From: Escherichia phage vB_EcoS_SA126VB
Sequence record: OL960573.1
Length of the DNA: 61,753 bases
Reading direction: 5' to 3' (one strand)
Part shown: positions 2,115-56,161 of the stretch, in pieces
Layout: every line of letters starts with the position of its first letter
Numbering within the stretch: the stretch's first letter is position 1
The notes under the pieces: model-generated
Told to the model about the DNA's origin: nothing
Databases searched by the model: none
The model's input: only the letters and a program-made list of their open reading frames with translations
Program-made: the position numbers and the translations under genes

Positions 2115-3611
2115 ATGGGTATTGATGCAACTCACCCGCTATATGATAAGTGGAAGGGTGCATGGGTCAAGTGCAACGACTGCTATGAGGGTGAAGATAA
2201 AATTAAGGAAGAAGGTGTTAAATATCTACCGCCTTTAGCTTCCATGATTATTGATGGGATGAATAATCCTGATGATTTGGGCTTTCAACGTTGGCTCGCT
2301 TATCGTCTGCGTGCTAACTTCCCTGACGATTATTCAAGTGCGGTTACAAACAATTTAGGCCTGCTGCACCAGAAGCCTCCTACAATCCAGCTTCCACCTG
2401 AAATGGAATACATGCGGGAGCTGTGTACTGCGGACGGTGAAGACATTATTGCTCTGCTACGTCGCATCAATGAAATGCAGTTAAAAAATGGACGTTTGGG
2501 CCTGCTGCTGGACTTACCTAAAGGTGAGGATGTAAATAACAGACCTTATATTAGCGTTTATGATGCTTTATCCATTATTAACTGGGATGATGGTAAAGAT
2601 GAATTGGGCAATATCAACTTGAACATGGTTGTTCTGGATGAAAGCGGTCCTGTACGTGTCAATCAGTTTGACTGGAAAGAAGAGAAGCGTTATCGCGTTC
2701 TACAATTGGGTCCAATGGACACAGATGAAGTTGCAGGTGGGGCGGTCTACTCCCAACATCTGTTTATTAACAATACCAATTATGATGAAGGGCAAATGAT
2801 TGCTCCTTATTATAAAGGTAATACGCTGGATGAAATTCCTTTCCAGTTTGTCAATACAACAGATATTACCCCAGCACCGGAAGCGCCGCCATTGTTGGGT
2901 CTTGCTAACATTTGTCTAAGCATGTACCGAAGTGACGCGGATTACCGCCAAAGCTTGCATATGCAGGGTCAGGACACCTTAGTCGTTGTTGGTGGTACTG
3001 GGGAGAATGGGGATAAAGCCCCTCAACGCATTGGCCCTGGCGCTGTCATTAACGTTGCTATTGGTGGTGACGCTAAATATGTAGGTGTTAGCGGTGACGG
3101 TTTGTCCGAGCAACGTCTCGCACTAGCTGCGGATAAGCAAGAAGCCCAAATTAAAGCCGGGCAAATGGTAAACAACACCAAGAGCACGCAGGAATCAGGC
3201 GAAGCTATGAAAACGCGTATTGCTGCGCGTACAGCTAGCCTGATTCGAATTGCGTATACTGGTGCGGCAGGTTTGGAAAACTTGCTGAAGGTTTGCGCTA
3301 AATGGATGGGTGCTGATCCAGAGAAAGTTGTGGTTAAGCCTAATCTTGAATTTACCAAGAGCATGTTTAACGGTCAGGACTTTGTTCAAATTATTACTGC
3401 ACGCAACCTTAAGGCTCCGATCAGCTTGCAGTCTATTCATGGCTGGCTTGTTGATCAGGGCTTAACCACACTAAGCTTTGAAGAAGAAATGGCAATTCTT
3501 GAGGAAGAGCTTAAGAAGTGGCCTCTGCCCGATGATGCTAAGGCTGATTTAAACGCAGAGCAGCAAGTAAACAAAGATCCTAAGGAAGACAACGCTTCCG
3601 ATAAAGAATAG
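2115..3611 (+). CDS. portal protein
   Basis: 498 aa directly after terL; GGAGGG RBS before ATG 2115; canonical position. Confidence 0.75.
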   Translation: MGIDATHPLYDKWKGAWVKCNDCYEGEDKIKEEGVKYLPPLASMIIDGMNNPDDLGFQRWLAYRLRANFPDDYSSAVTNNLGLLHQKPPTIQLPPEMEYMRELCTADGEDIIALLRRINEMQLKNGRLGLLLDLPKGEDVNNRPYISVYDALSIINWDDGKDELGNINLNMVVLDESGPVRVNQFDWKEEKRYRVLQLGPMDTDEVAGGAVYSQHLFINNTNYDEGQMIAPYYKGNTLDEIPFQFVNTTDITPAPEAPPLLGLANICLSMYRSDADYRQSLHMQGQDTLVVVGGTGENGDKAPQRIGPGAVINVAIGGDAKYVGVSGDGLSEQRLALAADKQEAQIKAGQMVNNTKSTQESGEAMKTRIAARTASLIRIAYTGAAGLENLLKVCAKWMGADPEKVVVKPNLEFTKSMFNGQDFVQIITARNLKAPISLQSIHGWLVDQGLTTLSFEEEMAILEEELKKWPLPDDAKADLNAEQQVNKDPKEDNASDKE

Positions 3612-4579: not shown

Positions 4580-4580
4580 G

Positions 4581-4609
4581 TTGACATCCCGACGTCCCTG
4601 ATGTTAAGT
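4581..4609 (+). promoter_or_regulatory. sigma70-like promoter (TTGACA-17-TTAAGT) upstream of major capsid gene
   Basis: TTGACA at 4581-4586, 17-nt spacer, TTAAGT at 4604-4609; overlaps a 9-bp inverted repeat (CCCTGATGT/ACATCAGGG). Confidence 0.35.
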
Positions 4610-4701
4610 TTCAACACATCAGGGACACGGGTTCCTAAACAGCCTTCCACGGGGAAAGGCTACCAACAGTAAACAAATCAATCCTTTTCCTGGAGACAAG
4701 T

Positions 4702-10067: not shown

Positions 10068-10465
10068 AAGCGCGCAGACAGTTAATTGATAAGAAGATCC
10101 TCCAATGGGAACTAAATAGCAAAGTCCCCGGCGGGGGATCTTCTTTATTATCGCAACTGCAAAAGGTTGAGGAACAGTCTGGTAAGACGCCACCTAAGCT
10201 TAAAGAATATCGGGAAAAGGAAATACCGCTTTGCTTCGAATATCTATCTACTTTATTTGATGATATCTACACTGGAGGAGATTTTAGTTATACAGAATTG
10301 CACAGCTATCAAGTGACAATGGGCTTACATCTTCAACCGTACGAATGCGAAATACTGCGGCAGCTATGGCTTGAAAAGCGCGTGTCAGAAGCTGAACAAA
10401 ATGCTAAACTCATGGAAAGTCAAATGCAAAATCAAAATAAAGGTAGAAGAAAAAGGAGAAGATAA
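9660..10465 (+). CDS. tail assembly chaperone GT-like fusion product via -1 frameshift
   Basis: -1 frame read by hand from 10058: FFLKARRQLIDKKILQWELNSKVPGGGSSLLSQLQKVEEQSGKTPPKLKEYREKEIPLCFEYLSTLFDDIYTGGDFSYTELHSYQVTMGLHLQPYECEILRQLWLEKRVSEAEQNAKLMESQMQNQNKGRRKRRR*; stop overlaps tape-measure ATG. Confidence 0.55.
10058..10064 (+). promoter_or_regulatory. -1 programmed ribosomal frameshift slippery heptamer T_TTT_TTC
   Basis: X_XXY_YYZ heptamer in frame 0 at the 3' end of the chaperone ORF; -1 frame is open from 10058 to the TAA at 10463-10465. Confidence 0.6.
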
Positions 10466-50848: not shown

Positions 50849-51595
50849 TTATTGGATTTCGGTTTTTTGGTACTGCATCACGATCTGAAATACCTGATCC
50901 GGTGTTCGCCCTTCGCGCAACTGTATCATCCATTCATCCAACTGTTCTAAACGTGCTTGAGCTTCGTTAATGTCCTTAAACGGCTGCCATGATACGGGGA
51001 CACAGCCATTAACACTTAGAGTAATTGATGTAGTCCCGTTTTCATACACTCTAAGCGCGCAAGTTGGCCAAACGCCACGGTTATCCCATACAGGAGGATT
51101 TTCTACAGATTTATAACTGCTATACCATTTATTGCGAAGCGATGTTCTTTCCTTATCCGTCAACGGAGCACCTTTAACCCTTTCATGCTCCTCCAGCCAA
51201 GCTTTAAATTTTGGGTCCGGTTTGCGCCCAACCTTTCCGCCTTTCCCTTTTGCATTTTCTTTAAACGCTTGTTCATATGGATCATTACCATGCGTTTTGT
51301 GCCAGTTAAACATACCGTTATAACGTGTTATCTCTTTGGCATCCAACTCATGCCCCAACTTATCGCTAACCCATGCAAGGAAATCCGCCCTCTCTTTGGC
51401 ATCCAGCTTCCCCGCTTTCTGTCTTGTAGCTTTTTTAACAGGCTGCTCCACATCTTCGTTGAAGTAATTTTCTACCATTGCAAGCGCCTGGCTTTTAGAT
51501 GGTGCACCGCGCAACCGTGAGCACTCCTGGACGATCCATGCAGCGAAGCACAACTCCTTAACCACAGTTTTAGATGCAATCATTTCTTCACTCAT
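50849..51595 (-). CDS. hypothetical protein
   Basis: 248 aa, GAGGAG RBS. Confidence 0.5.
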   Translation of the reverse strand: MSEEMIASKTVVKELCFAAWIVQECSRLRGAPSKSQALAMVENYFNEDVEQPVKKATRQKAGKLDAKERADFLAWVSDKLGHELDAKEITRYNGMFNWHKTHGNDPYEQAFKENAKGKGGKVGRKPDPKFKAWLEEHERVKGAPLTDKERTSLRNKWYSSYKSVENPPVWDNRGVWPTCALRVYENGTTSITLSVNGCVPVSWQPFKDINEAQARLEQLDEWMIQLREGRTPDQVFQIVMQYQKTEIQ

Positions 51596-51608
51596 AATAA
51601 CACTCCTC

Positions 51609-51638
51609 GTTATAAGAATAGATTTAAGCCGTCCACAA
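51609..51638 (-). promoter_or_regulatory. possible sigma70-like promoter (TTGTGG-18-TATAAC)
   Basis: Minus-strand -35 and -10 hexamers just upstream of the RBS of gene 50849-51595. Confidence 0.3.
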
Positions 51639-51697
51639 AACTTTTACAGTATCGCAAAACCTTTAAAAGTTACGTTATAAGGGAATTATATTAAAAG

Positions 51698-51917
51698 ATA
51701 GTGCTAGTGGCAATTATAGTGGCATTACTGCGTATAGTGCGCCGTTGCTGGCTTTCAATGTCCTGCCACTATAACTGCACAAACGGCTATCACTACTATT
51801 TTGTATAAAGTATAAATTTTTGGGTTTTGCGTTACGTATAAATACCCCCCTTTAAACTAAGAATTATAGTAGTAGTGGATAAACATAGTGAAATGCCACT
51901 ATCACTACTTACTATAA
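51698..51917. repeat. cluster of iteron-like repeats (TGCCACTAT / ATAGTGGCA and CACTACT units)
   Basis: TGCCACTAT at 51764 and 51894; inverted ATAGTGGCA at 51716; ATAGTGC at 51734; CACTACT at 51791 and 51904; AGTAGTG at 51871. Confidence 0.6.
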
Positions 51918-52181
51918 TTAATTTAATAAAAAATTGGGGTATCTGTACCAAAAACCTAAAACTTTCAGTCAACAGACTAAAAACGGATAGAAACTAAAAG
52001 TTAATAAGTAATAACATAAATATATATAAAATAAGGATTTATTAGTAATGTATATAGTACCTATTGGTATTATTTGAATGTTTTTGGGTCATTGTTAAAA
52101 AGTCCCAAAACTCACAAAAAGTGAACGGATGCAGATCAAAAATGAGAAGTCACGTGCTTTTGAGGGAAATTTATTGAACTA

Positions 52182-52211
52182 TTGTGATCGGAAGGTATAT
52201 CAAGCTATAAT
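52182..52211 (+). promoter_or_regulatory. near-consensus sigma70 promoter (TTGTGA-18-TATAAT) facing rightward with no obvious gene
   Basis: TTGTGA 52182-52187, TATAAT 52206-52211; adjacent to the AT-rich tract. Confidence 0.35.
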
Positions 52212-52295
52212 GCGCTTAATCGCGGGATATTGGAGGAGGACTTTATTGCGCGGTTAACCGGACCAGTAGGAGGGCTGGCCCGGAGAAGTTAGAAT

Positions 52296-52472
52296 TTATT
52301 TGCGGACGAATACAGAGCCGACAAATAATGTTGATTGAGTGGCAGCTTGCTCGATTAATTCGCCAACAAGCTGGGACTGCGTTAGAGGTTTAAGGCCTTG
52401 TTTGGCGCGTGCTTCATTTACACGGCGCTGAAGGTCTTTTAGGTATTGAGTTGCGAAGCTGTCTAATTGCAT
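52296..52472 (-). CDS. hypothetical small protein
   Basis: ATG 52472 with AGGAG RBS; longer track ORF from 52670 overlaps upstream gene. Confidence 0.3.
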   Translation of the reverse strand: MQLDSFATQYLKDLQRRVNEARAKQGLKPLTQSQLVGELIEQAATQSTLFVGSVFVRK

Positions 52473-52525
52473 TTTCGTTACTCCTAGGGCTCCCGCAGAA
52501 GCCCGTTGGTTGATGTGGTTATAGA

Positions 52526-53140
52526 TTATGCGTCCAGTCCGTTGTATTTGCGCCAGGCGTAGAACTGAATGGCAACTGTTGTCCCGTTGTAAGAAGGCAT
52601 TGCCGTTTTCATTTCTTTCAGCTCCGGCGTGCGGCCCAGTTCGGCTAAAAGTTTGTCGCCCATTGCCCACACTTCGGCGGTTTTTCCTTTCAGCGGCTTG
52701 CGAGCGCCATTTTTGAAATCACAGCGAGCAGCTTTTGCATCCTGTTTTGGCGCGGCAGCTTTTGGCTCTTCAATTTTGATTTCAGAAACCTGCGTGGCAG
52801 CTTTTGCATGTTTCATATCTTTCTCTTCCTCCTGCTCCAGAGCTTCGAGGCAGCTTTTGACGATTTCCGGATTTACCATCGGGCGCAGTACCGAGACGCT
52901 GGCAGCTGGCGCGGCGGTCGGTGCTGGGACTTTCTGCTCCGGCTGTTGCGCTTTTTTATGGTCGCGCAGCACCTGAAGCACTTCCTTCTCAACGATGTAA
53001 AAACCAATCTCGTCCTGATGGATAAGCTGTTCGTGTGCGTCGCGTGCAACCTGGCCCCAGCGGGTCTTAAGGGCGCGGCGTGCATTCGTTTTCATGGTGT
53101 AGCGCATTTTGTCCTGTTCGCGGTGGGTTACTTTAGACAT
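52526..53140 (-). CDS. hypothetical protein
   Basis: ATG 53140 with AAGGAG RBS; about 204 aa. Confidence 0.45.
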   Translation of the reverse strand: MSKVTHREQDKMRYTMKTNARRALKTRWGQVARDAHEQLIHQDEIGFYIVEKEVLQVLRDHKKAQQPEQKVPAPTAAPAASVSVLRPMVNPEIVKSCLEALEQEEEKDMKHAKAATQVSEIKIEEPKAAAPKQDAKAARCDFKNGARKPLKGKTAEVWAMGDKLLAELGRTPELKEMKTAMPSYNGTTVAIQFYAWRKYNGLDA

Positions 53141-53213
53141 GGTATAGCTCCTTTCATTAATATTAGTTTGCTTATTACTGCCCACCGTAATGATGAGCAG
53201 TGTATAAGAAAAC

Positions 53214-53462
53214 TTATTGCACGATTGCTACGAAATCGGCGGTTGCGATATCCATGCTTGCGAAAGCAACGATGCTATAGTCGGTGTCGTTGTCCGCGTT
53301 AAACGCTTTGAGGAACTGCTGTACTGCTGCTTTATGGTTAAGAGTTACGTCGACAGCGTAGTCCCAGCTATAGACTTTGCGCTTGCCAAAACCTTTAACT
53401 GCAATTCGTGCGCTTTTAGTGTTGGTTGGTGCCAAAAATTTGGTGACGATAGAAGTAGCCAT
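53214..53462 (-). CDS. hypothetical protein
   Basis: 82-aa ORF with ATG start; first gene of the leftward block. Confidence 0.4.
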   Translation of the reverse strand: MATSIVTKFLAPTNTKSARIAVKGFGKRKVYSWDYAVDVTLNHKAAVQQFLKAFNADNDTDYSIVAFASMDIATADFVAIVQ

Positions 53463-54034
53463 GATGTAATCCTCGTTTTGTTTAAGTTGACTTATTATTG
53501 CCCAGTCAGATCAACTAGGCAAGATATAAATCAACTATTTTCGCTTACATAATCCAGTGCAGCTTCGAGGAAATAGAATTCTTCCTGCTTATATAAGCTG
53601 ATGGCCCACTCCAGCTGAGCGCGAGTAAGGTGGCGATATTTGTTGTCGATGCTATAGCTGCGACCGAAGTAAATGATATTGAAGTAGTTGGACATAACGC
53701 GCCTCCAAGTGTGGTTAAGAAGTAGTACCGTGTTGCTATGGGTACATAATAGCGATGCATCGTGATATTGAATAGGCCAAAAGTGCTATTTAGAATTATT
53801 TTGCATCTAGTGAAAATTATGCTTGCATTGCATATTAGCACCAATGGCCTAACTAATATCACACGATCCGGTCTACACGCGTGCACGCATACATATAAGG
53901 CGAACCGGACCAGTTTCCACGGACTGGGAGTAGTATACCGGATCTACAGGAGCGGTTGCGCGCCCATATCCGTCCTGTAAGCTGGTCCACGAACAGGTCC
54001 AAAAAATATTTTTATAAAAAGATGCAAAAAGGTG

Positions 54035-54063
54035 TAGACATATGATCAGTCTAGCACTACTAT
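54035..54063 (+). promoter_or_regulatory. sigma70-like promoter (TAGACA-17-TACTAT) for rightward block
   Basis: Preceded by an A/T-rich UP-like tract; about 50 nt upstream of ATG 54113. Confidence 0.35.
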
Positions 54064-54112
54064 ATACACATACCGCAAGGGTACTACAAATTAACTTAAA
54101 GGGGTTTACATC

Positions 54113-54316
54113 ATGTCTATTCGTAACGTTATCTGCGTAATGGTTGCAAACAATAATTTCGGTTTCGTAGAAGGCACAGAGTATAAAATGGATCTTAAAA
54201 CTCGTTGCATTATTAAAGGTGAAGAGGAATGGCGTGCAGTAGTAGAAGACCGCGGAGATATCTACATCTATAGTTCGGATACAATGAAAACTATTGCCGT
54301 CTTCGAATTTAACTAA
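54113..54316 (+). CDS. hypothetical small protein
   Basis: 67 aa, AAAGGGG RBS. Confidence 0.4.
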   Translation: MSIRNVICVMVANNNFGFVEGTEYKMDLKTRCIIKGEEEWRAVVEDRGDIYIYSSDTMKTIAVFEFN

Positions 54317-54384
54317 GCCAACTCATACAATGGGCATTAATACAGTGCCCATTAATAAGCTAACTAATTATAACGAGGTGTATT

Positions 54385-54570
54385 ATGTCTACGAACACTG
54401 TGAAGTCTGTAAATAATAGCAACAGAACATTTAAAGTTATGTACTATGGCGAATATATCGGAGACGTTACAGCTCCCAGCCGCATCGATGCAGAAGGTTT
54501 CGTCCGCGTAGAGATGCAACTTGGAATCGCCGATTTTAGCGCCATCGTTGAACTGGTAGAGGTGTACTAA
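54385..54570 (+). CDS. hypothetical small protein
   Basis: 61 aa, GAGGTG RBS. Confidence 0.4.
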   Translation: MSTNTVKSVNNSNRTFKVMYYGEYIGDVTAPSRIDAEGFVRVEMQLGIADFSAIVELVEVY

Positions 54571-54571
54571 T

Positions 54572-54712
54572 ATGTCACGAAAATACACGCTTACACGCGC
54601 ACAGCACGCGTTATTGATTGCAGCTATGCGTGAAGAGTATGCGGCTCACGGCTGGTATAGCGCCATGATACGCGGAAAAAGTTTATATAAAGAGTTGTGT
54701 CCGCAGAAATAA
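54572..54712 (+). CDS. candidate small ORF (46 aa), below ORF-track threshold
   Basis: ATG 54572 right after previous stop, GAGGTG RBS; MSRKYTLTRAQHALLIAAMREEYAAHGWYSAMIRGKSLYKELCPQK. Confidence 0.3.
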   Translation: MSRKYTLTRAQHALLIAAMREEYAAHGWYSAMIRGKSLYKELCPQK

Positions 54713-55277
54713 GGCACACAGCAGCACCACAGCGGGCTAAAGCTCAAAGGTAATGGTAATGCATTACCAACACACAACGAGCACGTTGTACCCCACAAAG
54801 CGGCGCTAATTTCAATGCTCACAGGCTGTACGTTAACGCGTACGGCCTGCTCTGCTATATGTGCGCCATGTATATAGCCAGCTCACAATATGCATCAATA
54901 TAATGACGAATGAAATAGATTCGTTTGGAAGAATAACGGATCTTACAGTCACAGACCGGTCCAATGAGCCGACTCATAGACCCCACCTAGGATCATCAGG
55001 GTACTAATAATCACACGAGGGCGCCTTATCCATCCTGATAGTAAGTCCTTGTCTAAATCTCACCTGTCACATTCCTATCCACCTACATCCATAACCCCAC
55101 CTACCTTCTTTTTGAATATATTGCGCTCATCCTTTCTAAATATATGGATTTTGGTAGTAAATTCTGAGTCGTCAACGTATAATTCGTCTTGTAGCTGCTC
55201 CATAGCTACCATCTTTAAGCGGATGCAACCAATTTCTATCAATTCACACCTGTTTTTAGAGCATCAAGGAGGTATTT

Positions 55278-55529
55278 ATGTGTGACACCAGTGTAAGCGC
55301 TACACCCAGCACCTCCAGCAATGTGGTTACAGAGGTAAATGCAATGCGATTAGGTCCATATCGCGGCTATTATGGTCGTGCTGCATGGAATGACGCTACT
55401 CAACGTTTTGAAGGCTGGATTATCTGCCCGGAACGTGTTAAATTTCACTCCGTAAAAGAGAAAAATATCGTTCTTAATTTTCAAAAATGTGTCACTAAAT
55501 ATGTAGAGGAGCAAGAAGAATGCGTGTAG
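55278..55529 (+). CDS. hypothetical protein
   Basis: 83 aa, AAGGAGG RBS. Confidence 0.45.
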   Translation: MCDTSVSATPSTSSNVVTEVNAMRLGPYRGYYGRAAWNDATQRFEGWIICPERVKFHSVKEKNIVLNFQKCVTKYVEEQEECV

Positions 55530-55810
55530 AAGAGATTGTTGAAGGTAAAGAGTATCGTTTACTGACCGATATTGGTGGTGTTGGGTATACTCCGGATGAT
55601 GCAGCTTGTTTTAACGTCCTTCCGCAAGGTGCTATCGTGACAGTTAACAAGGTCGTTACCGATTTATACAGTGTTCATGACGGCAGATGGCCACATGCAG
55701 TTATTGTTACCTTCGGTAAAGATGGTTATGTGGACCTTGATGGCGAAGACGATACTTACGAAGTTGCGTATACAGGTCTGGTAAGTCCCAATTTCCTGGA
55801 AGAAGTATAA
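55520..55810 (+). CDS. hypothetical acidic protein
   Basis: 96 aa, GAGGAG RBS. Confidence 0.45.
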   Translation: MRVEEIVEGKEYRLLTDIGGVGYTPDDAACFNVLPQGAIVTVNKVVTDLYSVHDGRWPHAVIVTFGKDGYVDLDGEDDTYEVAYTGLVSPNFLEEV

Positions 55811-55861
55811 TTATCAATCTATAATGGGTTCTACGGAGCCCTTAATTATCTGGAGGTTGTT

Positions 55862-56161
55862 ATGCTGTATTTAGGAATGGACGAAACTGGACACGCAATT
55901 CCTTCTGTTAACAAAGAGACGCAAGTATTTACAGACTATTACGGGTCTGCTATTCCTGTAGAGCCCTGGGCCAACTTTATCGCTGTAGACGCAGACGGTA
56001 AAGTACATTGTTATGACGCCAAACCTTCTTGCTATGAATCTGGTAAGCAATGGATGCTTGGCGTATACGGTTTGCATGTGCGCTACTGCGGTGAAGTTGA
56101 CATTGAAGGTGTGGACTGGCGCGATACGTTGAAGGAGATTACTACATATGTCCACAGCTGA
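55862..56161 (+). CDS. hypothetical protein
   Basis: 99 aa, GGAGG RBS. Confidence 0.45.
   Translation: MLYLGMDETGHAIPSVNKETQVFTDYYGSAIPVEPWANFIAVDADGKVHCYDAKPSCYESGKQWMLGVYGLHVRYCGEVDIEGVDWRDTLKEITTYVHS

What the first reader, a model, noticed from the sequence alone, without database searches (positions are those of the whole stretch)
53165..53510. Conserved 18-nt motif upstream of two consecutive early genes
TTGCTTATTACTGCCCAC (53168-53185) and TTGACTTATTATTGCCCAG (53487-53505) match with one indel and one mismatch, and each sits 25-45 nt upstream of a leftward start codon (53140 and 53462). The spacing fits a shared promoter or operator for the first genes of the leftward block.
Basis: seen in the sequence. 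Interest (0 to 1): 0.4.

Follow-up and report, generated by a model that had tools for sequence, protein, structure and literature searches.

The report
Conserved hairpin module between phage early genes
The repeated 18-base motif is one arm of a roughly 60-base stem-loop that sits between the small early genes of this Seurat-like coliphage and its relatives; it is an ordinary kind of intergenic punctuation, apparently undescribed in this phage group, not a simple shared promoter or operator.

Summary
The window is a Seuratvirus genome (Queuovirinae). The two motif copies are real: the exact 14-nt core occurs twice against 0 expected. Each is the 3' arm plus 3' flank of a roughly 20-bp hairpin filling the gap between two leftward early genes (dG -21 and -19 to -24 kcal/mol, z about -4). 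A covariance model finds a third copy at 54308-54378 on the + strand, in the first gap of the rightward early operon. All three are co-oriented with transcription and start at the upstream stop codon.

Related and distant phages (Vid5, PSTCR4, K4PH164, Nonagvirus BRET) carry the same module. The flanks are invariant (UUAUA...UAAUAA). The upper stem varies but stays paired: 10 of 10 pairs covary, and 0 of 500 shuffles match the score.

Only one window copy looks like a sigma-70 promoter (TTGCCT-17-AATAAT). Across the family the box spacing is 14, 15 or 17, so promoter geometry is not the conserved feature. No copy has a U-tract. The modules persist as conserved islands where flanking ORFan genes are swapped.

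Best reading: an intercistronic RNA hairpin for processing or stability, with the layout of T4-type PeSL cassettes. Its function is inferred, not shown. Interest is modest.

The parts
53472..53544 (-). Module 'a'. The hairpin is 53485-53536, with an 11-bp AU-rich lower stem, a 3x2 internal loop, a 10-bp upper stem (53498-53522) and a 5-nt loop. It follows the UGA stop of the 54-aa ORF (53531-53533), which lies inside the lower stem. Its sigma-70-like boxes are TTGCCT at 53522-53517 and AATAAT at 53499-53494.
   Evidence: Fold dG -19.1 to -24.0 kcal/mol, z -3.9 to -4.0. CM R2 scores 84.2 bits, against 24 bits on the reverse strand. The promoter scan gives 9/12.
53151..53222 (-). Module 'b'. The hairpin is 53165-53214, built of 5+5 bp lower stems and a 10-bp upper stem (53177-53201, two G.U pairs) with a 5-nt loop. 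It begins at the UAA stop of the 82-aa ORF. It has no credible -35 or -10.
   Evidence: Fold dG -21.3 kcal/mol, z -4.58, with 0 of 200 shuffles as stable. CM R2 scores 71.6 bits.
54308..54378 (+). It lies in the first intergenic gap of the rightward early operon and begins at the UAA stop at 54314-54316. The 10-bp upper stem is at 54329-54353 (AAUGGGCA/UGCCCAUU). Its flanks are almost the same as those of module b, but its stem is entirely different. In this genome the lower stem is weakened (CUCAUA instead of CUUAUA).
   Evidence: It was found by CM R1, which was not trained on it: 28.6 bits, E 1.2e-3. R2 gives 65.7 bits, but R2 was trained on this copy. Homologues occur in CAjan, yong3, ECP2304 and GottfriedDienst.
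53531..53695 (-). First leftward early ORF (54 aa, unknown function). It is replaced by other genes in most relatives, with the homology break at 53540/53541.
53214..53462 (-). Second leftward early ORF (82 aa, unknown function). Together with module b it forms a cassette (about 53147-53482) that is absent from Seurat, VogelGryff, SA80RD and SHIN8.
52526..53140 (-). Third leftward early ORF (204 aa, unknown function, conserved across genera). A module lies directly upstream of its homologue in Seuratvirus, Vid5 and PSTCR4.
54113..54316 (+). First rightward early ORF (67 aa). Its stop codon opens module c.
54385..54570 (+). Second rightward early ORF (61 aa), downstream of module c. The island 54325-54389 (module plus SD plus ATG) is conserved even where both flanking genes differ.

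Best explanation
The motif is half of a modular intercistronic stem-loop. The layout is: stop codon, AU-rich UUAUA, a 9-10 bp variable GC-containing stem, a 4-8 nt loop, the complementary arm, the invariant UAAUAA(G/A), about 20 nt, then Shine-Dalgarno and ATG. The genome has three copies, all within about 600 nt either side of the divergent early control region, and all in the sense orientation of their operon.

Shown:
- The hairpin is the selected feature, supported by covariation.
- It is co-oriented with transcription and intergenic.
- It is low-copy and confined to the early operons.
- It marks the junctions at which small ORFan cassettes are exchanged between relatives.

Inferred:
- The hairpin forms in the polycistronic early mRNA made from the upstream early promoters and acts there.
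- My preferred mechanism is processing and stabilisation. The two-turn helix (about 20-21 bp, with an internal loop directly under a 10-bp upper stem) has the size and shape I recall for bacterial RNase III substrates such as the sites between T7 early genes. Cutting in the internal loop would separate the cistrons. It would leave the upstream message capped by a protective 3' hairpin and give the downstream message a defined AU-rich leader.
- In the 'a' form the same DNA may also act as a weak internal sigma-70 promoter, because its boxes straddle the stem as in T4-type PeSL cassettes.

About 0.5 applies to 'RNA-level structural module rather than promoter or operator'. About 0.3 applies to RNase III specifically.
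For: Structure:
- Both motif copies fold into roughly 20-bp hairpins with z -4.6 and -3.9.
- RNAalifold on 10 sequences finds 7 of 14 pairs with compensatory change.
- On 23 sequences with a 21-pair structure, 87.5% of cells are paired against 72.8% in shuffles (0 of 500 reach it). The covariation score is 0.394 against 0.130. Slid controls give 27-49% paired. All 10 upper-stem pairs covary.
- Modules b and c share their flanks but have unrelated stems. The c stem AUGGGCA/UGCCCAU is the G/C-flipped form of the BRET and K4PH164 stem UUGCCCA/UGGGCAA.

Strand:
- The upper stem has 31 G.U against 9 A.C, and the sense strand is more stable in 18 of 23 sequences.
- CM scores are 66-84 bits in sense against about 24 bits in antisense.

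Position:
- Every copy in every phage checked is co-oriented with its flanking ORFs and starts at the upstream stop codon.

Geometry:
- Total helix length is 20-21 bp in Seuratvirus, Vid5 and PSTCR4 despite different sequences.

Not a terminator:
- The 3' flank is AAUAAUAAG, and the terminator scan does not list any copy.

Not generally a promoter:
- Box spacing is 14 (PSTCR4_a1, K4PH164), 15 (BRET, phiG7_b, window b and c) or 17 (most a-types).

Context:
- RNase III sites in E. coli are enriched in intergenic regions within transcripts (PMC6212723).

Cassette junctions:
- Homology with 11 of 14 relatives that align across this region breaks within 3 nt of the 5' edge of module a.
- The islands 53483-53540 and 54325-54389 persist between unrelated flanking genes.
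Against: - No transcript ends are known for any of these phages, and no transcript-mapping study of them turned up in the library. Every functional step is therefore inferred.
- The lower helix shows no sense-strand bias (13 G.U against 22 A.C).
- In this genome's module c the antisense fold is the more stable (-23.1 against -13.1 kcal/mol). An RNA-only reading is therefore not proven, and a two-turn helix is not present in every copy.
- The innermost four lower-stem pairs (UUAU/AUAA) and the TG...CA at the stem base never or almost never vary. That points to sequence-specific recognition, which RNase III alone does not explain. It fits a -10 box or a bound protein better.
- The a-type module keeps TTGC...17...AATAAT in three genera, and with more sequence identity than the adjacent protein.
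- RNase III sequence rules could not be scored, because the matrix is not held.
Confidence: 0.5

Rival explanations
1. These are true PeSL-type cassettes. Each module is an early sigma-70 promoter whose spacer holds a stem-loop, and the stem-loop attenuates or terminates read-through from upstream. Every ORFan cassette would then be its own insulated transcription unit. Modules b and c would be decayed or unusually weak promoters.
For: The layout matches the published description of RB49/phi1 PeSLs: stop codon in AT-rich sequence, -35, stem-loop most often between the boxes, G-T pairs, -10, SD and ATG, sitting at the indel and replacement junctions of close relatives (PMC2839356; PMC4122927). 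Module a has TTGCCT-17-AATAAT. Spacing of 17 recurs in yong3, STP-SP5, Seurat, SA80RD, Vid5 and PSTCR4_a2. KS_A3 changed its stem but kept a promoter-like CTAACA-18-TATAAT. The TAATAA tract is invariant.
Against: Two of the three copies here lack usable boxes, and 14-15 nt spacings occur in several lineages. A 9/12 match is near chance level in this AT-rich region. There are only 3 copies per genome (1 in BRET), against about 50 in RB49/phi1. There is no U-tract for intrinsic termination. Lower-stem complementarity extends well outside the promoter, and the outer pairs covary in Vid5 and PSTCR4.
Confidence: 0.25
2. One reading: a shared double-stranded DNA site, either a promoter or an operator for a phage or host regulator, controlling the two genes.
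For: The site lies 24-45 nt upstream of two start codons. Its dyad symmetry has nearly invariant outer half-sites, TTATA..TG and CA.TAATAA. Module a has promoter-like boxes.
Against: The centre of the dyad differs between copies and phages yet stays complementary, which a protein site does not require. G.U pairs make the dyad imperfect on the other strand. Module b has no promoter boxes. The third copy lies in the opposite operon, again in sense orientation, although a symmetric operator would not need an orientation.
Confidence: 0.08
3. An antitermination or RNA-polymerase-modifying RNA site, like lambda nutL/nutR or HK022 putL/putR. It would be placed early in both divergent operons so that transcription can read through downstream terminators.
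For: The element is low-copy, present in both early operons, in sense orientation and roughly 200-300 nt downstream of the likely early promoters. Terminator-like hairpins lie further downstream, for example 54779-54793 and 55826-55841.
Against: Loop sequences are not conserved even within one genome (UGAUC, AUUAC, UUAAUACA), whereas nut boxB is read through its loop. There is no boxA-like element and no two-hairpin put fold. Rfam gives no match. In KS_A3 the module lies about 1.4 kb and seven ORFs from the operon start. BRET has only one copy.
Confidence: 0.07
4. The module has no regulatory role of its own. It would be a recombination linker or selfish junction sequence, conserved because it is the substrate on which cassettes are swapped.
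For: Homology breakpoints coincide with the module edges, and short conserved islands lie between unrelated genes. The phiG7 b-position module is a chimera of b flanks and an a-type arm.
Against: Homologous recombination needs sequence identity, not pairing, yet the stems diverge while keeping complementarity. Strict sense orientation, the fixed position from stop codon to SD, and conservation across genera whose adjacent protein is only about 30% identical all point to selection on function.
Confidence: 0.07

Closest known systems
PeSL (promoter-early stem-loop) cassettes of T4-type myoviruses RB49/phi1, PST and nt-1 (Arbiol et al. 2010, PMC2839356; Comeau et al. 2014, PMC4122927)
   Same: An intergenic module that starts at the upstream stop codon in AT-rich sequence. 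The stem-loop lies between or over sigma-70-like boxes, G-T pairs are tolerated, and SD and ATG follow. It sits next to small ORFans in variable early regions and coincides with indel and replacement junctions between close relatives.
   Different: There are only 1-3 copies per genome instead of about 50. Two of the three copies here have no credible promoter, and box spacing varies from 14 to 17. The stem is longer (about 20 bp, bipartite) and covaries. The hosts are siphoviruses (Queuovirinae, Vidquintavirus, Craquatrovirus). Promoter and terminator activity are untested.
RNase III processing sites between the early genes of phage T7/T3 (my own knowledge of Dunn and Studier's work; general in vivo context from PMC6212723)
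   Same: Intercistronic hairpins in a host-polymerase early transcript. Each is about two helical turns with an internal loop under a roughly 10-bp upper stem. They form a family with similar AU-rich loop flanks and different stems, and they have no U-tract.
   Different: No cleavage data exist. There is no sequence similarity to T7 sites. The RNase III box rules were not scored. The lower stem is weak in some copies.
Lambda nut and HK022 put antitermination RNAs
   Same: Low-copy sense-strand RNA hairpins placed early in both divergent early operons.
   Different: There is no conserved loop, no boxA, no double hairpin and no Rfam match.
Intercistronic mRNA-stabilising hairpins (REP-type 3' stabilisers in bacterial operons; own knowledge)
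   Same: A stable hairpin directly after a stop codon that could block 3' exonucleases.
   Different: These modules are phage-borne, have invariant flanks and a fixed distance to the next SD, and are not a dispersed host repeat.

Membership tests
PeSL (T4-type promoter-early stem-loop) | Intergenic, beginning at the upstream stop codon in AT-rich sequence and ending with the SD and start codon of the next ORF | tested here: met
   All three window copies and all copies in relatives.
PeSL (T4-type promoter-early stem-loop) | Sigma-70-like -35 and -10 boxes about 17 nt apart | tested here: inconclusive
   Module a has TTGCCT-17-AATAAT, 9/12. Modules b and c have CTGCTC-15-AGTAAT and ATGGGC-15-ATTAAT. 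Relatives show spacings of 14, 15 and 17.
PeSL (T4-type promoter-early stem-loop) | Stable stem-loop between or overlapping the boxes | tested here: met
PeSL (T4-type promoter-early stem-loop) | Many copies concentrated in hyperplastic regions (about 50 per genome) | tested here: not met
   Exactly 3 copies in the window and 1 in the whole BRET genome.
PeSL (T4-type promoter-early stem-loop) | Located at indel and replacement junctions between close relatives | tested here: met
   Breaks at 53540/53541, 53146-53154 and 54317/54325; conserved islands at 53483-53540 and 54325-54389.
PeSL (T4-type promoter-early stem-loop) | Demonstrated promoter and terminator activity | not testable with these tools
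   Needs reporter assays or transcript-end mapping.
RNase III processing site (T7 early type) | Helix of about 20-22 bp, often with an internal loop about 10 bp below the hairpin loop | tested here: met
   20-21 bp in modules a and b and in Vid5, PSTCR4, yong3 and KS_A3. Only the 10-bp upper stem is predicted for this genome's module c.
RNase III processing site (T7 early type) | Lies within a polycistronic transcript, in sense orientation, between cistrons | tested here: met
   Position and orientation are shown. Co-transcription is inferred from the gene layout.
RNase III processing site (T7 early type) | Base-pair preferences of the proximal, middle and distal boxes | not tested
   The scoring matrix of PMC6212723 is not held as text.
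RNase III processing site (T7 early type) | Cleavage by RNase III | not testable with these tools
   Needs an in vitro assay or a comparison of rnc- and wild-type hosts.
Intrinsic (rho-independent) terminator | GC-rich hairpin followed directly by a U-tract | tested here: not met
   The 3' flank is AAUAAUAAG, and none of the three copies is listed by the terminator scan.
Operator of a sequence-specific repressor | The same dyad sequence at all sites in one genome | tested here: not met
   The stems of modules a, b and c differ and covary.
Lambda nut / HK022 put | Conserved boxA plus a boxB loop, or the two-hairpin put fold | tested here: not met
   Loops are not conserved, the element is a single hairpin, and Rfam gives no hit at E <= 1.

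The most novel reading that the evidence does not exclude
The module is a dedicated, previously unrecognised cis-regulatory RNA of the immediate-early transcripts of the related siphoviruses examined here (Queuovirinae, Vidquintavirus, Craquatrovirus). Its variable hairpin would present an invariant UAAUAA(G/A) tract, an (ARN)3-type sequence, to a specific host or phage factor. Candidates are RNase III, Hfq/S1 or an early phage protein. That factor would set the processing, stability or translation of the conserved 204-aa early gene and its neighbouring ORFans.
Probability: 0.15. Interest if true: 0.55.

Novelty: new variant of a known kind. Interest (0 to 1): 0.35.

Why it matters
Early regions of virulent coliphages are full of ORFans whose expression signals are almost never mapped. 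This module gives a concrete, testable handle on how Seurat-like and related phages punctuate their immediate-early operons. It also bears on how ORFan cassettes are swapped between relatives. If it proves to be an RNase III-type site or a PeSL-like promoter/attenuator, two things follow. The PeSL concept would extend from T4-type myoviruses to siphoviruses. The module would also be a compact insulator part for phage engineering. It changes no major concept.

Tried and rejected
- Rfam scan of 51000-55500 at E <= 1: no family matched.
- Intrinsic terminator: rejected, because there is no U-tract.
- Genome-wide copies: two covariance models with filters off find only the three copies. Other hits score 14 bits or less, with E above 3.
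- Raw sliding-window MFE scan: dominated by GC-rich coding regions and uninformative.
- IMG/VR search with the 204-aa protein: only 4 loci, all close relatives.
- IMG/VR pattern search (TTATANNTTGC-N15-21-GCAATAATAA): 23 loci, and four of the 19 searched with the model score as true hairpin modules (three distinct sequences). These lie in uncultured contigs with no match among isolated phages. This is weak evidence that the design occurs elsewhere.
- Pfam, PHROGs and PDB searches of the flanking proteins: unknown function only.
- Integron attC-like recombination site: considered and rejected from my own knowledge of attC. As I read the sequence, the terminal GTTGA...TCAAC is in the opposite order to the attC core sites. 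I saw no integrase, though none was specifically searched for.
- Simple deletion model (recombination between modules a and b giving the Seurat arrangement): rejected, because Seurat's leader downstream of the module differs from both window leaders.
- Tandem in-frame UAA UAA as a read-through backstop: the in-frame relation holds in the three window copies but not in yong3, so I dropped it.
- Literature: no description of these elements in the 9g, Vid5 or Seuratvirus papers.

Full report
**Identity of the window.** Megablast of 52500-54000 finds 34 phage records at 90-99% identity, all Seuratvirus (Queuovirinae): CAjan, Seurat, slur01, BASEL phages and others. ORF layout gives three blocks:
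- rightward structural genes at 1-25.2 kb;
- a leftward block at 25.4-53.7 kb;
- a rightward block from 54.1 kb.

The finding therefore lies at the start of the leftward early operon, next to a divergent control region at about 53.7-54.1 kb.

**The observation.** They align with one indel and two mismatches. The 14-nt core CTTATTAYTGCCCA occurs exactly twice, against 0.00 expected. The motifs lie 24-45 nt upstream of the ATGs at 53140 and 53462. These are the second and third genes of the block, because a 54-aa ORF (53531-53695) precedes them.

**What the motif is.** Each intergenic region was folded as the leftward transcript. Both give a long hairpin that starts at the upstream stop codon:
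- 53141-53216(-): dG -21.3 kcal/mol, z -4.58;
- 53463-53533(-): dG -19.1 kcal/mol, z -3.90; with a little more flank, -24.0 kcal/mol.

The opposite strand folds less well: -17.2 against -24.0 kcal/mol for the second region.

**Comparative evidence.** The gap upstream of the 204-aa gene's homologue carries a hairpin of the same architecture but different stem sequence in the following phages:
- Seurat, CAjan, yong3, KS_A3, STP-SP5, VogelGryff and SA80RD;
- Pantoea phage Vid5 (Vidquintavirus, 33% protein identity);
- Providencia phage PSTCR4 (Craquatrovirus, 29% protein identity).

Further copies occur in Klebsiella phage K4PH164 and in the Nonagvirus BRET.

The covariation evidence is as follows.
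- An RNAalifold consensus of ten sequences has 7 of 14 pairs with compensatory changes.
- For 23 distinct sequences and a 21-pair structure, 87.5% of cells pair, against 72.8% in shuffles (0 of 500 reach the observed value).
- In the same test 14 pairs change on both sides, and the covariation score is 0.394 against 0.130.
- Sliding the 3' partner by 1-3 columns drops pairing to 27-49%.
- All ten upper-stem pairs covary. The four innermost lower-stem pairs (UUAU/AUAA) never or almost never vary.

The invariant parts are UUAUA on the 5' side and UAAUAA(G/A) on the 3' side.

**A third copy.** Covariance model R1 was built without this copy. It finds 54314-54373(+) at 28.6 bits, E about 1e-3. This is the first intergenic gap of the rightward early operon, and the element again starts at a UAA stop and is in sense orientation. 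Its flanks nearly match those of the 53157-53216 copy, but the stem is unrelated: AUGGGCA/UGCCCAU against CUGCUCA/UGGGCAG. Homologues occur in CAjan, yong3, ECP2304, GottfriedDienst and Greed. The refined model R2 finds exactly these three copies in the window at 84, 72 and 66 bits. Their reverse-strand shadows score about 24 bits and nothing else exceeds 13 bits. The whole BRET genome has one copy, also in the early operon.

**Promoter or hairpin?**
- The 53478-53538 copy has TTGCCT-17-AATAAT, a 9/12 match. The boxes sit at the base of the upper stem and just 3' of it.
- The same geometry recurs in several relatives.
- Matches of that quality are near chance level here: 22 found against 14 +/- 3.8 expected in 6 kb.
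- The other two window copies have no usable boxes.
- The spacing between the box-like sequences is 14 in PSTCR4_a1 and K4PH164. It is 15 in BRET, phiG7_b and window copies b and c. It is 17 in most a-types.

Promoter geometry is therefore not the family-wide constraint, whereas pairing is. No copy has a U-tract (the 3' flank is AAUAAUAAG), and none is called by the terminator scan. Rfam has no match.

**Strand.** In the upper stem G.U pairs outnumber A.C by 31 to 9, and the sense strand is the more stable in 18 of 23 sequences. This favours a structure read on the transcribed strand. The lower helix shows no such bias, and this genome's module c folds better in antisense. The strand evidence is therefore moderate, not decisive.

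**Cassette junctions.** Local blastn of 50.5-57 kb against 19 related loci gave these patterns:
- Seven relatives lose homology at 53540/53541, within 3 nt of the module's 5' edge.
- Four more keep only the island 53482/3-53540/1 (58-60 nt) between unrelated flanking sequence.
- The cassette at about 53147-53482 (the 82-aa gene plus module b) is absent from Seurat, VogelGryff, SA80RD and SHIN8.
- On the right, the island 54325-54389 persists in CAjan, Greed and CSP1 between different genes.
- GottfriedDienst has a 297-nt gene insertion exactly at 54317/54325.

The phiG7 b-position module is a chimera of b-type flanks with an a-type arm and compensating partner.

**Comparison with known systems.** The layout and junction behaviour match the PeSL (promoter-early stem-loop) cassettes of T4-type phages. 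Those are described as running from stop codon through AT-rich sequence, -35, stem-loop (most often between the boxes, with G-T pairs), -10, SD and ATG. They were shown there to have promoter and terminator activity and to mediate modular shuffling (PMC2839356; PMC4122927). Membership fails on copy number (3 against about 50) and, for two of three copies, on the promoter.

The helix is about 20-21 bp with an internal loop under a 10-bp upper stem, in an intercistronic position within an early operon. From my own knowledge this resembles the RNase III sites between T7 early genes. In E. coli, RNase III sites are enriched in intergenic regions within transcripts (PMC6212723). The published base-pair matrix was not available to score the helices.

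The nut/put antitermination sites share only the low copy number and the placement in both operons.

**Mechanism.** I commit to an RNA-level intercistronic hairpin module that processes or stabilises the early polycistronic mRNA. RNase III-type cleavage is the most likely route, and the a-type copy may double as a weak internal promoter. The structure, orientation, position, copy number and junction behaviour are shown. Transcription through the element, cleavage, stabilisation and promoter activity are inferred.

**Literature and novelty.** I found no description of these elements in the 9g, Vid5 or Seuratvirus comparative papers, and no transcript mapping for these phages. This is a new variant of a known kind of element, of modest interest.

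Noticed in passing
window 51596-52295: A roughly 700-nt ORF-poor stretch inside the leftward block. It has a repeated TGCCACTAT(A/C)A motif (+ strand at 51764 and 51894, - strand at 51726) and a 15-nt inverted repeat at 51710-51724/51764-51778 (hairpin about -29 kcal/mol). It also has near-consensus sigma-70 sites on the - strand: TTGCCA-17-TATAAT at 51713-51685 (11/12), plus 52098-52069 and 51892-51863. It is probably the strong promoter/operator cluster for the replication genes.
   Followed up: no
window 53696-54112: The divergent early control region contains a 39-nt inverted repeat (53714-53752 and 54057-54095, 72% complementary), so the two early leaders mirror each other. It also contains a 27-nt inverted repeat (53762-53788 and 53836-53862, 78%) that looks operator-like.
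   Followed up: no
window 55805-55866 (+): A short GC hairpin, GGGUUC/GAGCCC, flanked by UAUAAU and UUAAUUAU, lies between ORFs 55520-55810 and 55862-56161. It has the same stop-AU-hairpin-AU-SD layout and a more U-rich tail. The terminator scan lists it, but the covariance models do not hit it.
   Followed up: partly
L010 (Pantoea phage Vid5, MG948468) 2932-3513: The GenBank annotation puts gp80 on the strand opposite to the homologue of the 204-aa gene. That homologue is the ORF at 2971-3513(+), with tblastn E 8e-16 and the same AGAAGGAAUAUAC-AUG ribosome-site context. The annotated strand for this block looks doubtful.
   Followed up: partly
L017 (phage phiG7) 2558-2617: The module at the b position is a chimera. 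It has b-type flanks, but its 5' arm CUUGCCUACU is identical to that of the Seurat a-type module, and the 3' arm compensates. This suggests exchange or gene conversion between modules.
   Followed up: partly
L041 2841-2901(-), L031 5855-5908(+) / L025, L029 3136-3188(-): Uncultured IMG/VR contigs with no match among isolated phages carry hairpin modules of the same design (UUAUA..UUGCC-stem-GGCAAUAAUAA). They are intergenic, co-oriented with the flanking ORFs and begin at or just after the upstream stop codon.
   Followed up: partly
relatives L002, L004, L013, L017 (CAjan, KS_A3, SA80RD, phiG7): HNH homing-endonuclease genes are inserted at variable places in the same early region, for example directly downstream of the 204-aa gene in CAjan and KS_A3. 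This is a second source of mosaicism there.
   Followed up: no
window 53499-53491, 53179-53171 and 54351-54359: The nearly invariant tract 3' of the stem (AAUAAUAAG; AGUAAUAAG in module b, AUUAAUAAG in module c) reads as A-R-N triplets. From memory this is the type of sequence bound by the distal face of Hfq. This was not tested.
   Followed up: no
window 4580-4701 and 10068-10166: Very stable long hairpins lie in two intergenic gaps of the structural-gene block (-39 and -34 kcal/mol, z -4.3 and -5.3). They are probably terminators or processing sites for late transcripts.
   Followed up: no
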